Source: Sulfolobales archaeon (lineage in GTDB: Archaea; Thermoproteota; Thermoprotei_A; Sulfolobales; AG1). From it: a DNA stretch of 11,110 nucleotides. The translations under genes were made by a program, and so were the position numbers. The notes beneath the pieces are model-generated. The model did no database searches and was not told the DNA's origin. It saw only the letters and a list, made by a program, of their open reading frames with translations. This document shows positions 33 to 10,470 of the stretch, piece by piece. Location: assembly GCA_038867615.1 (NCBI GenBank), contig JAWBYA010000017.1:1-11110 (forward strand), written 5' to 3'. Position 1 is the stretch's first letter. The number at the start of each line of letters is the position of its first letter.

Positions 33-91
33 TCTGACCTCCTCCCCGCTCTAAGGGAACCCTCGCCCTTCAGGGCGGGGAGGAGGTCAGA
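33..91. mobile_element. Two IS200/IS605-family (tnpB-type) right-end remnants fused in inverted orientation (MITE-like relic)
   Basis: GGAACCCTCGCCCTTCAGGGCGGGGAGGAGGTCAG (56-90) has the hairpin + TCAG terminus typical of crenarchaeal IS605/IS1341 right ends. Bases 33-49 (TCTGACCTCCTCCCCGC) are a perfect 17-bp inverted copy of 75-91. There is no tnpA or tnpB in between. Confidence 0.8.
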
Positions 92-7113: not shown

Positions 7114-7198
7114 CAGGGATGCTAGGAATGCTAGCTCTGCTCTGCCGCGCAGCAGCAGCCCCCCTAATAATATATGCTAAAAAACATGCCCAAACCCT

Positions 7199-8068
7199 GA
7201 TCAAAATTAGATCTGATCAGATCTAGATCGAGAACCGACCCCCCGATCCCGAGTGCTTTCCACTCCGCTGCTCCTTTGCAAAGTGCAGTATGAACATATA
7301 TGACTCCGAAAGATCGCCTAGATCTTTAAGACCCCATAGATCGTGGATCAAAAAAGATCCGAGAAAAAGATCTGTGAAAGATCCAGATCCAGATGATCCA
7401 GATTTTTACAGAATATTATTCTTGCCCTCTCCTAGATTTGTTGAATATTATCTATTGAATCCCCAGATATTTCTATAGACTTTGTTTAGATGCCCATAGA
7501 TATGTGTTTTTTATTCATCATAGTCTATATCTTTTGGGGTATATATATCACAAGCCCATACTTTCTATGTATAACTCTGTATATTTTTAGCTGTGTCTAT
7601 TTCGATCTCTTGATCTTCGGGATCTTGTTCCTCGGGATCTTCTTTTTCTCTTCTGCATTTCTTTCGATGCTTTCCATGTTTAACTGATTGTTTTTTATCA
7701 CAGCGATCTTTGCTAGTAGCCTTATATGTTTTTCATGTGTTTTGGTATTACCTTTTATAAGTTTTTCGCCTGATCTTTTTTGATCTGTCTTCTCTGGATC
7801 TTTTCTGGATCTTTGGGGGTTTTCTAGGTGTGTTTGATCTCCTCCAGATCTTTTTTTCTCCGAGGATCTTCATTTTCTTTTTGATCTGGTCTGTTTTTGT
7901 TTTCTTTTTCGCTCGGGATCTTCTGATCGGATCTTTGGATCTTTTAAATGCCAGATCGATCTGTTTTATAGCACACCTGTTTTTCCACGCTTAACCGAGT
8001 GGTTTTAGCCTTGGCTAAATTTTTGATCCCATGAACTTTTTTGCTTTTGATCTGCCTTCTCTGGGATC
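7199..8068. repeat. GATC-dense low-complexity non-coding region with polarity switch
   Basis: About 37 GATC by hand count in 870 bp. The left cluster (7199-7398) is mostly A-rich AGATC, the right cluster (7604-8068) mostly T-rich GATCT(T), and the AT-rich core 7399-7603 has no GATC. Confidence 0.8.
7208..7225. promoter_or_regulatory. Perfect 18-bp palindrome, candidate operator upstream of the 1171-aa gene
   Basis: TAGATCTGATCAGATCTA is self-complementary and lies about 25-40 bp upstream of an AT-rich TATA-like stretch (7165-7184). Confidence 0.4.
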
Positions 8069-8334
8069 TTTTTCAACCTCGATAATCCCTGGCTTTGGAG
8101 TTCGGTGTATATATAAAAATATGTAGCACTCAAATCATAGTCCCAGATAAAAAAAGATCCATCCAGCCCTTGCGGCATTTCGTTCATGCATAAAACGAAC
8201 CCGAATCAAGGGGTGGATGTATATCGAGGGATATGCGGGAGAGATTTGAGTGCTACACATTGACCGCAGATCTTTTACGAGTAAATAGATCCCCAGATCG
8301 AGATGTCCCAGAGAAGAAACCCCTTTGCAAAAAA
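8037..8334. ncRNA. Nested quasi-palindrome; candidate structured ncRNA or cruciform DNA site
   Basis: Concentric inverted repeats centred at about 8189: 8179-8184/8194-8199, 8160-8172/8207-8219 (12/13), 8122-8136/8243-8257 (15/15), 8078-8083/8297-8302, 8056-8066/8306-8316 (11/11) and 8037-8044/8327-8334. Expression is not demonstrated. Confidence 0.5.
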
Positions 8335-8507
8335 CAACTAGAATAGTAATCAAGGGATATTGGCTAGGAAATGCCCCGCACAACCCCCTCGATCGGCGGG
8401 CACCAGAAAAACCACTAATATATTATATATAGGTATATTGCCCCGTCCAGCCAGCCAACACAAGCCCATAGCTAGAGGTTTAAAACCCTACCCAGCCTTA
8501 ATGCATC

Positions 8508-8645
8508 AAAAACATTCTATAGAAGATCTCAAGCCCAGGGTTTTTGATTTTTGTTTTTGTATATACCTTTCAATTCTATAGCAGATCATTTGTTTTTGTA
8601 TATACAGATATAGCCCAGATTCTTTCAATTCTATAGCAGATCATT
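8508..8645 (-). CRISPR. Mini CRISPR-like array: two identical 24-bp repeats plus one degenerate repeat
   Basis: AATGATCTGCTATAGAATTGAAAG (minus strand) occurs at 8622-8645 and 8567-8590, with a degenerate copy at 8508-8531. Spacers are 31 and 35 bp. The repeat ends in the canonical ATTGAAAG handle and is 20/24 identical to the Sulfolobus islandicus repeat GCTAATCTACTATAGAATTGAAAG as I recall it. Confidence 0.75.
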
Positions 8646-8686
8646 ATTTTCCCTGGGCTCTCATCCACACATATAATATTGCTAAA

Positions 8687-8699
8687 GGGGTATATATAT
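8687..8699 (-). promoter_or_regulatory. TATA-like element upstream of the mini-array (possible leader promoter)
   Basis: ATATATATACCCC on the minus strand, about 40 bp before the first repeat. The same 13-mer occurs at 7536-7548. Confidence 0.35.
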
Positions 8700-8711
8700 T
8701 TGAGTAATAGA

Positions 8712-9545
8712 TCATATATATATGAGCCACCTATCGGGCTCCCTCAGCATTTTATCTCCAGTCTCTTCAAGTGCTTTAACAGCATGCCCTGTGATGAGTT
8801 CTAGAAAATCTCTAGCCTCCCTCTCATCGCTAAAGTGAGGAACTAACACGGCTACGCTGGGCAGTAGAAATGTGCGCTTAACACCATATGTGCGCTCTAA
8901 AATGCTTCTTATAATATCTACTCCACCTGTATCTATATGTCTAGCCGATTCAAACCACCTAGGCACGTTCTCCAGCAAGATAGCTCCAGAGATGACCATG
9001 AATACAAGGTCTATCCTCTTGGCACCAGTAGCATTTATAACCCTTCTGCCATTCTCTCCAGCTCTCTCAATCAGGATACTCTTAGCACTTAGATCTGGGA
9101 GGGGGAATCTAAGATCTTCGGGCATGGACTCGACATTGCTCTTCAAAACCCCATAGTCATGCCCGATAACCAGGAAAGGCAGGTCTCCCAGCAGGGCATC
9201 GAATCTCTTTCTGCTACCCAGTATCTTTTCTATCTCATCGAGGTTGAAGCCAAGCTTAGCAAGATAAACAGTATATGCCGATGCACTTGAATTAACAAAC
9301 AACCTTGATAACTCTCTAGGCTTCTCGATGAACTGCGTGGCTGGGTAGAGAGTGAGGTTGATGATTGGAGGTCTAAAGATCTTTGAGAAGCTGTAGAAGC
9401 TGTTGATCGCTTCACCAAGTCTCCAAGCATCAATGGGTTCGATCCTCGGCTTGTAGATCTTGCTGAGCTCATCCTCATCCCAGCTAAACACAGTTATGGG
9501 TATCACAGCACCTCCAACATGGACATTATCACCCATATAACCCAC
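8712..9545 (-). CDS. Hypothetical protein (277 aa) ending in HbYX-like LIYI
   Basis: Long ORF. The start may be the ATG at 9536, which follows a GGGTG RBS. The C-terminal ~65 aa are paralogous to the adjacent 70-aa ORF. Confidence 0.85.
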   Translation of the reverse strand: MGYMGDNVHVGGAVIPITVFSWDEDELSKIYKPRIEPIDAWRLGEAINSFYSFSKIFRPPIINLTLYPATQFIEKPRELSRLFVNSSASAYTVYLAKLGFNLDEIEKILGSRKRFDALLGDLPFLVIGHDYGVLKSNVESMPEDLRFPLPDLSAKSILIERAGENGRRVINATGAKRIDLVFMVISGAILLENVPRWFESARHIDTGGVDIIRSILERTYGVKRTFLLPSVAVLVPHFSDEREARDFLELITGHAVKALEETGDKMLREPDRWLIYI

Positions 9546-9559
9546 CCTAGGCGCACATA

Positions 9560-9772
9560 CTAGATATACATGAGATGGTTATCCCTGCCCATCCTCTTCT
9601 GGTTATCGTATGCGATCTCAATGTTCTCTATAACTTTCTTCATAATATCCTCCAAGAATTTCTTAGCCTCCTTCTCATCACGATATGGGGGGACTGGCTC
9701 TAAGAGTCTAGTTATCACATCTGAGACTAGGAGACCGTACCTTGCCCTTAGCAAGCCCTGCTCCATAATCAC
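9560..9772 (-). CDS. Small hypothetical protein (68-70 aa) ending in HbYX-like LMYI
   Basis: Overlaps the stop codon of the upstream gene. GGAGG RBS precedes the ATG at 9766. Clear homology to the C-terminus of the 277-aa protein supports coding status. Confidence 0.8.
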   Translation of the reverse strand: MIMEQGLLRARYGLLVSDVITRLLEPVPPYRDEKEAKKFLEDIMKKVIENIEIAYDNQKRMGRDNHLMYI

Positions 9773-10428
9773 GCCTCCAGGGCTATCTCTCTCTCAACCC
9801 TCTTCTCATCCTCATCAGGTTCATTGCGTCTAAACAGCCTGTGGGGCGGTATATACCTTATAGGATCTATATACTGCTCCCTAGCCACGCTCCTCACAAT
9901 CTCTGGGTCTATGTTGAGGGGCTTCGGCTCAATTACCATGGTTTCGACCTCATAGCCATCGCTAGCCTCTCTAAGCCCTACAAGTGTTATGGGATGCTGA
10001 AGCACCCACGCAAAGATCTCCGCCTGCTTCTTGGCATACTCATCTATCGGGTATGTCTTAAACTCAAAGTATTTGTCGAGATAAGGGCTATAGAGATCTG
10101 GCTGCGCAGCAATGTATATCCCGTTCTCATATCTCCTAAACGTGGGTGGAATACCGACCCCTACTACCTTTGCTTCGTGGAGTGCGATGTACATTTTAAT
10201 GCCTTTCCTGAGCAGATCTTCGCTGTATATTTTGTGGAGCTCAAGCAGAGATTTCAGATCATATGTGAATATCCTCAATATGAATGGGTCGAGATCTCTG
10301 GGTGTTACGTGGTTCTTGGATACGTAGAGCTGCTCGAATATCTTCCCAAATATCATCCCCACAAGTGTTCCCTGAGGGGGAGAGGCTATCCTCTTAGCGA
10401 TATCCGATGCCTTCGCAACTAGAACCAT
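9769..10428 (-). CDS. PD-(D/E)XK superfamily nuclease, RecB/Cas4-like, without Fe-S cysteines
   Basis: Motifs appear in the expected order: GKIFE, IAAQPD, YFEFKT, QAEIF (QxxxY-like). GGTGG RBS upstream. The protein has no cysteine. Confidence 0.75.
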   Translation of the reverse strand: MVLVAKASDIAKRIASPPQGTLVGMIFGKIFEQLYVSKNHVTPRDLDPFILRIFTYDLKSLLELHKIYSEDLLRKGIKMYIALHEAKVVGVGIPPTFRRYENGIYIAAQPDLYSPYLDKYFEFKTYPIDEYAKKQAEIFAWVLQHPITLVGLREASDGYEVETMVIEPKPLNIDPEIVRSVAREQYIDPIRYIPPHRLFRRNEPDEDEKRVEREIALEA

Positions 10429-10470
10429 GCCCCCACCAACTATATCCCCGAAAAAGGGGCTTCCAGCGGG

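What the first reader, a model, noticed from the sequence alone, without database searches (positions are those of the whole stretch)
8712..9772. Tandem paralogues sharing a C-terminal domain that ends in an HbYX proteasome-docking-like motif
Seen: the 70-aa protein aligns almost gap-free with the last ~65 aa of the 277-aa protein (YG...VPxxxDExEAxxFLExI...E...D...R..DxxLxYI), and both end hydrophobic-Tyr-Ile. Known: C-terminal HbYX motifs of PAN, Cdc48 and PbaA/PbaB bind 20S proteasome alpha-ring pockets. Inference: element-encoded proteasome activators, inhibitors or adaptors, with the short form acting as a stand-alone modulator.
Basis: partly seen in the sequence, partly recalled or inferred. 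Interest (0 to 1): 0.7.

Follow-up and report, generated by a model that had tools for sequence, protein, structure and literature searches.

The report
Orphan archaeal paralogues with conserved tail
The long gene is the intact last member of a small tandem gene family of unknown function found only in a few hot-spring archaea, the short gene is what a 1.6-kb deletion left of its neighbour, and the shared Leu-x-Tyr-Ile end is truly conserved but nothing yet ties it to the proteasome.

Summary
Observation confirmed. The 70-aa ORF aligns with residues 213-277 of the 277-aa ORF (30% identity, one gap, E 2e-6). They end MYI and IYI.

The interpretation needs revising. Both genes belong to a tiny orphan family of about 280-aa proteins. 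It gives 5 real clusters among 1.84 billion representatives, and clear matches in 2 of 325 genomes of the order. Where intact, it forms a tandem array of three full-length paralogues (L016).

The 70-aa ORF is not a stand-alone domain protein. It is the 3' remnant of the middle paralogue. Homology stops at window 9739/9740. One metagenome contig carries 1611 extra bases exactly there. An intact 279-aa version has the same last 57 residues.

The tail is a real feature. 21 of 22 distinct native C-termini read L-x-Y-X, on an end modelled with low confidence after a long helix. That fits the operational HbYX definition, but so do 29 of 1903 long ORFs in this genome.

There is no homology to known proteasome regulators and no link to proteasome genes. 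No family or fold match was found (best Z 3.8). Function is unknown. I favour a strand-type docking tail for self- or paralogue assembly, and put proteasome docking at about 15%.

The parts
8712..9545 (-). Intact 'A-type' family gene (277 aa from GTG 9545, 274 aa from ATG 9536). It has a ferredoxin-like core with a large helical insert, a long C-terminal helix (residues 241-268) and a conserved tail.
   Evidence: ORF list. 80-87% identical orthologues in G002 and in metagenomes. AF2 models: pLDDT 80.8 and pTM 0.83; pLDDT 88.4 and pTM 0.88.
8715..8726 (-). Codons for the terminal L-I-Y-I (L274 and Y276 are nearly invariant in the family).
   Evidence: Sequence. Alignments A2 and A4. Tail tally: 21 of 22 native tails are L-x-Y-X. 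Residues 272-277 have pLDDT below 50.
9560..9739 (-). 3' remnant (59 codons plus stop) of the 'B-type' paralogue. Its DNA is 100% identical to the end of the B gene in G002.
   Evidence: The blastn homology to L007 and L016 ends at 9739. 0 of 180 nt differ from the G002 B gene, against 72 of 834 in the A genes. Intact B (P0017, 279 aa) has the same last 57 aa.
9740..9772 (-). Eleven junction codons (MIMEQGLLRAR) that give the remnant a start codon. They overlap the stop codon of the upstream 219-aa ORF.
   Evidence: These codons do not align to the B genes. A contig of run X4 carries 1611 extra letters between 9739 and 9740. Contigs of X1 and X3 bridge the junction as in the window.
8509..8645 (-). 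CRISPR-repeat-like copies just downstream of the A gene: two exact 24-nt copies (8622-8645 and 8567-8590) and one degenerate copy (8509-8532).
   Evidence: The host's 122-repeat array at C1:626879-634738 differs from this repeat by 2-3 nt. One copy plus a degenerate one is conserved downstream of the A gene in L007, L013, L014, L016 and L017.
9769..10428 (-). Upstream 219-aa ORF, now joined to the remnant. It is an independent gene with homologues elsewhere.
   Evidence: Homologues at 39-46% identity in 12 of 150 other genomes of the order, in unrelated neighbourhoods. No Pfam hit.

Best explanation
Shown: the locus holds the end of a lineage-specific tandem gene family. When intact it is three adjacent genes of about 280 aa each (C, B, A). 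Here a deletion of about 1.6 kb removed C and the first three quarters of B, leaving A intact and a 70-aa chimeric ORF that is a B remnant. Each family protein is modelled as one ferredoxin-like core: strands 10-21, 57-68, 177-189 and 225-235, with a helical insert at 69-175. A long helix (241-268) follows, and then a short end modelled with low confidence whose last four residues are L-x-Y-[I/L]. Inferred: the tail is a short docking peptide held out on the helix. The invariant residues are at -3 (Leu) and -1 (Tyr), while -2 and 0 vary. I therefore think it most likely binds as an extended strand, with Leu and Tyr on one face, in a hydrophobic groove of a neighbouring subunit of the same family. 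That would build homo- or hetero-oligomers of the paralogues. The biochemical role of the assembly is unknown. The remnant ORF is most likely a decaying pseudogene, not a regulator. The confidence given is for the whole statement: about 0.9 for the shown part (family, array, remnant, conserved tail) and about 0.35-0.4 for the inferred self- or paralogue-assembly role of the tail.
For: - Family and array: three tandem paralogues in L016. A profile search finds only 5 real clusters in 1.84e9 representatives, and 20 proteins in the 90% clusters.
- Remnant, homology: it ends at window 9739.
- Remnant, reads: X4 has 1611 extra bases at that exact joint, while X1 and X3 contigs bridge the deleted form. 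From L016, a missing B part of 669 nt, a 30-nt gap and a C gene of about 858 nt add up to 1557 nt, which fits 1611.
- Remnant, intact parent: P0017, 279 aa.
- Remnant, other loci: B or C copies are cut differently elsewhere. They are 173 aa and 161 aa next to TnpB genes and 137 aa frameshifted.
- Remnant, decay: variant P0027 has a -1/+1 frameshift pair through DEKE.
- Tail: L274 and Y276 are among the 26 invariant or nearly invariant columns of 277. 21 of 22 native tails are L-x-Y-X, with -2 being I, M, V, A or T.
- Tail placement: it is not placed with confidence in either model, at pLDDT below 50.
- Single core domain: structural alignments run from about residue 10 to about 240, so they include strand 225-235.
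- Selection on A: 31 synonymous against 35 non-synonymous codon differences between the window and G002. This is my crude reading of relaxed purifying selection.
Against: - No direct evidence for oligomerisation.
- The i/i+2 argument is an inference from 22 tails that are not independent.
- A stays intact where B and C are destroyed, so A cannot strictly need its paralogues.
- The tail equally fits the operational HbYX definition (small or hydrophobic at -2, Tyr or Phe at -1; PMC3493965, passage read).
- One homologue (P0008) lacks the Tyr, and one A variant (P0030) has its last 28 residues replaced.
- The remnant keeps an open frame with a start codon coupled to the upstream gene, so it could still be translated.
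Confidence: 0.4

Rival explanations
1. One reading: the tail is an HbYX motif that docks into the pockets between alpha subunits of the host 20S proteasome. The family would then be accessory proteasome activators, inhibitors or adaptors, built like PbaB (globular core, projecting C-terminal helix, flexible HbYX end).
For: - All 21 Tyr-containing tails satisfy the operational definition: small or hydrophobic at -2 and Tyr at -1 (definition in PMC3493965, passage read).
- The last residue is the more variable one (I, L, N, T), as X should be.
- The tail is unplaced after a long helix. In PbaB the last 19-23 residues are disordered behind helix alpha6, and binding depends on HbYX (PMC3605417, passages read).
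- The host has a 20S alpha subunit with an invariant Lys68, which I take, untested, to be the counterpart of the K66 that binds activator C-termini (PMC12352868, passages read). It also has one Cdc48 ending IYA.
Against: - The tripeptide is common: 29 of 1903 ORFs of 150 aa or more in this genome, and 0.93% of archaeal proteins (PMC11475706, passages read).
- The strictly conserved hydrophobic residue is Leu at -3, not the -2 'Hb' position, which is Thr in two tails and Ala in two.
- No homology to AAA+ or PAC2 regulators: no Pfam hit, and hhalign against the host PAC2 protein gives probability 0.1%.
- No proteasome gene lies next to any locus.
- The family is clear in 2 of 325 genomes of the order, whereas the alpha subunit is in 28 of 31.
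- PbaA shows that an HbYX end need not bind mature 20S (PMC3605417).
Confidence: 0.15
2. The tail docks on a different host machine (for example a PCNA subunit or a AAA+ unfoldase), or acts as a C-terminal degradation signal that keeps these proteins short-lived.
For: The conserved tail, modelled with low confidence, implies an intermolecular partner. In one context (L017 and L013) a PCNA gene lies about 2.8 kb downstream. Hydrophobic C-terminal tags are known degrons in bacteria (recalled, not checked here).
Against: The tail lacks the Qxx[LIM]xx[FY][FY] spacing of PIP boxes (recalled consensus). The PCNA neighbour is absent from the window and from G002, so it is probably just a chromosomal flank. 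There is no evidence for any degron system.
Confidence: 0.15
3. The proteins are highly diverged RAMP-like (RRM-fold) CRISPR-associated subunits that work with the adjacent mini CRISPR-like array.
For: A CRISPR-like repeat plus a degenerate copy follows the A gene in all six loci examined. The weak structural matches include Csm3, Cascade and Csy subunits and a RAMP protein (Z 2.0-3.3). Tandem paralogous subunits are typical of effector complexes.
Against: All Z values are below 4 and are shared with many unrelated ferredoxin-like folds. No Pfam, NCBIfam or PADLOC hit. No cas gene is nearby. The repeat lies within one co-inherited DNA block, so its linkage is not independent evidence. The same repeat follows many TnpB genes in the genome, which points to IS debris. 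The spacer has no target in the genome (14-mers) or the window (10-mers) beyond low-complexity hits.
Confidence: 0.06
4. The family is a fast-evolving, dispensable orphan family in decay, and the conserved end is needed only for folding or stability of each monomer.
For: Patchy distribution. Repeated truncation of B and C, and one A variant with a replaced C-terminus. Many non-synonymous changes.
Against: A is intact in every locus where its whole gene is on the contig. The tail is not packed against the body in two models, yet it is among the best conserved positions across paralogues about 30% identical.
Confidence: 0.15

Closest known systems
PbaB / PbaA (PAC2 family, PF09754), archaeal proteasome assembly-factor homologues
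   Same: Similar size (about 250-280 aa), an alpha/beta core, a projecting C-terminal helix, and then a flexible end finishing in small/hydrophobic-Tyr-X (PMC3605417, passages read).
   Different: No sequence relation: no Pfam hit, and hhalign against the host's own PAC2 protein gives probability 0.1%. PbaB is a three-layer alpha-beta-alpha fold, whereas this model is a split ferredoxin-like sheet with a helical insert. No PAC2 structure appears among the structural matches. The distribution is a few genomes rather than archaea-wide. Binding to 20S is untested.
HbYX tails of PAN and Cdc48/VAT AAA+ ATPases
   Same: Penultimate Tyr preceded by a small or hydrophobic residue at the extreme C-terminus, conserved across homologues.
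   Different: This is not an AAA+ protein. The invariant hydrophobic residue is at -3, not -2. In this host the PAN homologue ends AAYQHI and only one of the two Cdc48 proteins ends in HbYX (IYA).
C-terminal I-x-I docking motif of small heat-shock proteins
   Same: A short C-terminal motif on a flexible extension, with alternate hydrophobic residues conserved. It binds as a strand in a groove of a neighbouring subunit to build oligomers. This is the mode I infer here from the L(-3)/Y(-1) pattern.
   Different: No alpha-crystallin domain. The motif here is L-x-Y-[I/L] at the very end. This is a mechanistic analogy only.
RAMP (RRM-fold) subunits of CRISPR effector complexes
   Same: A ferredoxin-like core with large insertions, tandem paralogues, and a CRISPR-like repeat next door.
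   Different: Structural Z is only 2.0-3.3. I saw no G-rich loop, there is no profile hit, and there are no cas neighbours.

Membership tests
HbYX-motif proteasome-binding proteins | The extreme C-terminus reads small/hydrophobic - Tyr (or Phe) - any residue. | tested here: met
   21 of 22 distinct native tails: -2 is I, M, V, A or T; -1 is Y; 0 is I, L, N or T. The exception is P0008, which ends FIRI. Definition from PMC3493965 (passage read).
HbYX-motif proteasome-binding proteins | The tail is flexible and solvent-exposed. | tested here: met
   A prediction only. pLDDT is below 50 for residues 269-277 and 272-277, after helix 241-268.
HbYX-motif proteasome-binding proteins | Binds the pockets between 20S alpha subunits and/or opens the gate, dependent on the last residues. 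| not testable with these tools
   This needs a pull-down and a peptidase assay. No computational result here bears on it.
HbYX-motif proteasome-binding proteins | Belongs to, or co-occurs with, the proteasome system (homology to PAN, Cdc48 or PAC2, or gene linkage). | tested here: not met
   No Pfam, NCBIfam or PHROGs hit. The neighbours are ORFans, TnpB genes and CRISPR-like repeats. Clear matches are in 2 of 325 genomes, against the alpha subunit in 28 of 31.
PAC2 / PbaA-PbaB (PF09754) | Match to the PAC2 profile. | tested here: not met
   No Pfam hit at E up to 0.1. The host's real PAC2 protein scores 134.6 bits. hhalign of family alignment A2 against it gives probability 0.09%.
PAC2 / PbaA-PbaB (PF09754) | PAC2 three-layer alpha-beta-alpha fold. 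| tested here: inconclusive
   No PAC2 chain is listed by Foldseek or VIA-align for either model. Absence from these lists does not exclude the fold.
RAMP superfamily (Cas5/Cas6/Cas7) | RRM core recognisable by profile or structure, with a glycine-rich loop. | tested here: inconclusive
   Only Z 2.0-3.3 to Csm3, Cascade and Csy chains among many other ferredoxin-like folds. No profile hit. I did not see a G-rich loop in alignment A2.

The most novel reading that the evidence does not exclude
A variable-region family in Sulfolobales has independently evolved a PbaB-like architecture: a globular core, a projecting helix and a conserved HbYX-type end. Up to three paralogous subunits would use it to cap or block the host 20S proteasome. 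Since the proteasome times cell division in Sulfolobales, this would let an accessory gene set tune host proteolysis or the cell cycle.
Probability: 0.13. Interest if true: 0.8.

Novelty: categorically new. Interest (0 to 1): 0.4.

Why it matters
If the tail is only an assembly motif of an orphan family, this is one more uncharacterised archaeal family. It would still be a candidate new fold: the model is confident (pLDDT 88) and the best structural Z is 3.3-3.8. If the tail does dock on the 20S proteasome, it would be the first accessory, non-AAA, non-PAC2 proteasome-binding family in archaea. It would sit in a lineage where a preprint (10.1101/2025.05.09.653063, abstract read) reports that phosphorylation of the proteasome alpha subunit controls cell division. 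Either way, the correction matters: the short ORF is a deletion remnant, not a designed 'short form'.

Tried and rejected
- Complex prediction: three host alpha subunits (alignment A3) plus residues 236-277 of the family (A2) scored 0.04 and 0.00 against a mark of 0.32, so the verdict was 'no answer'. I use it neither for nor against binding.
- Sequencing runs: no RNA holder was listed for window 8450-10450, so expression of either ORF is unknown.
- Family libraries: Pfam, PHROGs, NCBIfam and PADLOC gave nothing for either protein.
- PDB sequence profile search: best E 0.071.
- Structure searches: Foldseek against PDB and BFVD gave no hit at E 0.001 or better. VIA-align wide gave best Z 3.8 and 3.3, and the second look gave Z 3.7.
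- ESM Atlas: no usable hit.
- Collections: tblastn against plasmids and phages found nothing. Viral-contig scans with the family, the 1171-aa protein and the 219-aa protein found nothing. The 1171-aa protein was found in no other of 150 genomes.
- Technical error: the alignment query to genome contigs failed because it had no conserved stretch, so I used the single protein instead.
- Spacer targets: only low-complexity 14-mers turned up in the genome (10-mers in the window).
- Earlier findings of this scan: none.
- Rejected ideas: (1) a palm-domain polymerase, suggested by DNA polymerases heading the Foldseek lists, because TM is 0.16 or less and E is above 0.1; (2) GvpF, rank 43 at TM 0.12; (3) PCNA linkage, because the neighbour appears in one context only.
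- Literature: 'HbYX' plus 'Sulfolobus' gave 5 papers, none on such a family by title or abstract.

Full report
**Observation.** On the minus strand, ORF 8712-9545 (277 aa) and ORF 9560-9772 (70 aa) lie 14 nt apart. BLASTP aligns residues 213-277 of the long protein with 5-70 of the short one: 20/66 identical, one gap, E 2e-6. They end RWLIYI and NHLMYI.

**The family.** Neither protein matches Pfam, PHROGs, NCBIfam or PADLOC.
- A word-indexed search found 10 relatives.
- A profile search of 1.84 billion cluster representatives found 6 hits, 5 of them real: P0007, P0011, P0012, P0013 and P0014. The sixth, P0015, is a repeat protein.
- A profile search of the 90% clusters gave 20 proteins.
- Among 325 genomes of the order, 4 scored at E 0.001 or better. 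These were the window's genome, one genome of the same genus (G002), one probable distant relative whose C-terminus runs off its contig (G087, E 1e-7), and one dubious hit containing a stop codon (G148).
- The sequences fall into four types, about 30-37% identical to each other.
- In metagenome contig L016, three of the types lie head to tail: a C type cut by the contig end, a B type of 282 aa and an A type of 277 aa.

The window's 277-aa gene is A type.

**The 70-aa ORF is a remnant.**
- DNA similarity between the window and all related loci stops at window 9739.
- The last 180 nt of the short ORF are identical to the end of the 173-aa B-type ORF in G002. The adjacent A genes differ at 72 of 834 nt.
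- An intact 279-aa B protein (P0017) has the same last 57 residues.
- Laying contigs of four hot-spring runs over 8450-10450 gave the key result. One contig of X4 matches both sides of 9739/9740 but has 1611 extra letters between them. Contigs of X1 and X3 bridge the joint exactly as in the window.
- By arithmetic from L016, 669 nt of missing B, a 30-nt gap and about 858 nt of C make 1557 nt, so the insert has the right size to be the lost genes. I could not read those letters.
- The first 11 codons of the short ORF are junction sequence that overlaps the stop of the upstream 219-aa ORF.
- Elsewhere the upstream paralogues are cut at other points. They are 173 aa and 161 aa beside TnpB genes, and 137 aa with a frameshifted end.
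- One population variant of the remnant (P0027) has a -1/+1 frameshift pair that rewrites the conserved DEKE motif.

**Structure.** AlphaFold2 gave pLDDT 80.8 and pTM 0.83 with 10 sequences, and pLDDT 88.4 and pTM 0.88 with 23 sequences.
- The topology is strands 10-21, 57-68, 177-189 and 225-235 with helices, a helical insert at 69-175, and a long helix at 241-268.
- The end (272-277) stays below pLDDT 50.
- Foldseek found nothing at E 0.001 or better in PDB or BFVD.
- VIA-align against 48,161 chains gave best Z 3.8 and 3.3. The tool states that 7-8 is typical even for models without a clear match.
- The weak matches are ferredoxin-like or RRM domains aligned from about residue 10 to about 240.
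- So the last 65 residues are not a separate domain. They supply the end of helix alpha2, strand beta4 and the terminal helix of a single core. This is my inference from the aligned ranges; I could not inspect coordinates.

**The tail.** I collected 33 sequences, which gave 24 distinct last-40 tails.
- Two tails are not native ends: P0006 is truncated and P0014 is frameshifted.
- Of the 22 native tails, 21 end L-x-Y-X: LIYI 12, LAYL 2, LMYI 2, LTYI 2, and LVYI, LVYN and LVYT one each.
- P0008 ends FIRI.
- A later-seen A variant (P0030) has its last 28 residues replaced.
- In the 23-sequence alignment only 6 columns are invariant and 20 nearly so, and L274 and Y276 are among them.
The tails meet the operational HbYX definition of Forouzan et al. 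(PMC3493965, passage read).

**Against over-reading the tail.**
- The tripeptide ends 29 of 1903 ORFs of 150 aa or more in this genome, and 0.93% of archaeal proteins in ProEnd (PMC11475706, passages read).
- The invariant hydrophobic residue is at -3, while the 'Hb' position -2 varies and is Thr or Ala in four tails.
- There is no homology to PAN, Cdc48 or PAC2. The host's own PAC2 protein gives hhalign probability 0.1%.
- No proteasome gene is nearby in any locus.

**Context.** The window is a whole 11,110-nt contig.
- It holds ORFans: a 1171-aa protein found in no other of 150 genomes, and ORFs of 451, 324 and 203 aa.
- It also holds a DUF411 protein and a DUF488 fragment.
- The 219-aa ORF has homologues in 12 of 150 other genomes, in unrelated neighbourhoods.
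- No integrase, replication or capsid gene was found, and there is no plasmid, phage or viral-contig match apart from a 36-nt hairpin also found behind a tnpB gene of plasmid pMGB1.
- The flanks of the A gene differ between loci: dCTP deaminase in G002, and a methyltransferase-domain gene upstream and PCNA downstream in L017.
- This is an accessory, recombining region. 'Element-encoded' is not demonstrated.

**Mechanism.** Shown: a tandem family, a deletion remnant, and a conserved tail that the models do not place.

Inferred: the tail is an intermolecular docking peptide. The i/i+2 conservation (Leu -3, Tyr -1) suggests strand-type binding in a groove. I rank the candidate partners as follows:
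- a subunit of the same family, about 0.35-0.4;
- the 20S alpha pocket, about 0.15;
- another host partner or a degron, about 0.15;
- monomer stability only, about 0.15;
- a RAMP-like CRISPR role, about 0.06.

None of these was tested directly. The one complex job returned no answer (see Tried and rejected).

**Verdict.** The family matches no known family or fold, so formally it lies far from anything known. With function unknown and orphan families common in Sulfolobales, I score interest at 0.4.

Noticed in passing
window 8509-8645 (minus strand); also L007, L013, L014, L016, L017 just after the A gene: There is a mini CRISPR-like unit here: a 24-nt repeat (two exact copies in the window, one in the other loci), an A-rich 31-46-nt 'spacer', and a degenerate repeat. 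It is bracketed by the inverted repeat GCCCAGGG/CCCTGGGC. The repeat differs by 2-3 nt from the host's 122-repeat array at G000:C1:626879-634738. The spacer is conserved between loci and has no target in the genome (14-mers) or the window (10-mers), so it looks more like a CRISPR-derived RNA element or IS debris than an adaptive array.
   Followed up: partly
G000 genome, e.g. C1:232908, 235408, 239136, 535916; C2:202754; C4:201440; C7:66523: About ten solitary copies of the host CRISPR repeat (GTCGATCTACTATAGAATTGAAAG type) sit directly behind a conserved stretch of about 70 nt that encodes a TnpB C-terminus (..DGSPMPLGS..). So the right ends, or guide-RNA scaffolds, of an IS605-type TnpB family appear to finish in a CRISPR repeat. 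One literature search listed no paper on this by title or abstract. It may be worth its own look.
   Followed up: partly
window 33-91: An imperfect 25-nt-arm hairpin sits at the contig end. Its bases 55-90 match 100% the DNA just downstream of a tnpB gene on Saccharolobus plasmid pMGB1 (NC_021914). It is probably an IS200/IS605 end that caused the contig break.
   Followed up: partly
window 9560-9739 versus G002 (L003:589-768): This 180-nt stretch is identical between two genomes whose adjacent A genes differ by 8.6%. That points to recent recombination or transfer of just this segment.
   Followed up: no
window 7114-8500: A stretch of about 1.4 kb has no convincing ORF. It is AT-rich with strong T-over-A skew around 7500-8000 and many GATC-containing short repeats (..GATCTTTTT..). 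It is partly conserved in L016 (window 8118-8370). Its function is unknown.
   Followed up: no
window 9769-10428 (minus strand): By eye, the 219-aa ORF has a ...PDL...EFK... pattern that recalls PD-(D/E)xK nucleases. No profile hit supports this. Its homologues occur in 12 of 150 genomes of the order.
   Followed up: partly
G000:C1:497539-498783 and C2:262036-264204, C2:286762-289071: The host's PAN-like ATPase ends AAYQHI, which is not HbYX. One Cdc48 ends SLFI and the other ends PPIYA. In this organism only one of the three candidate proteasomal ATPases carries a canonical HbYX end.
   Followed up: no
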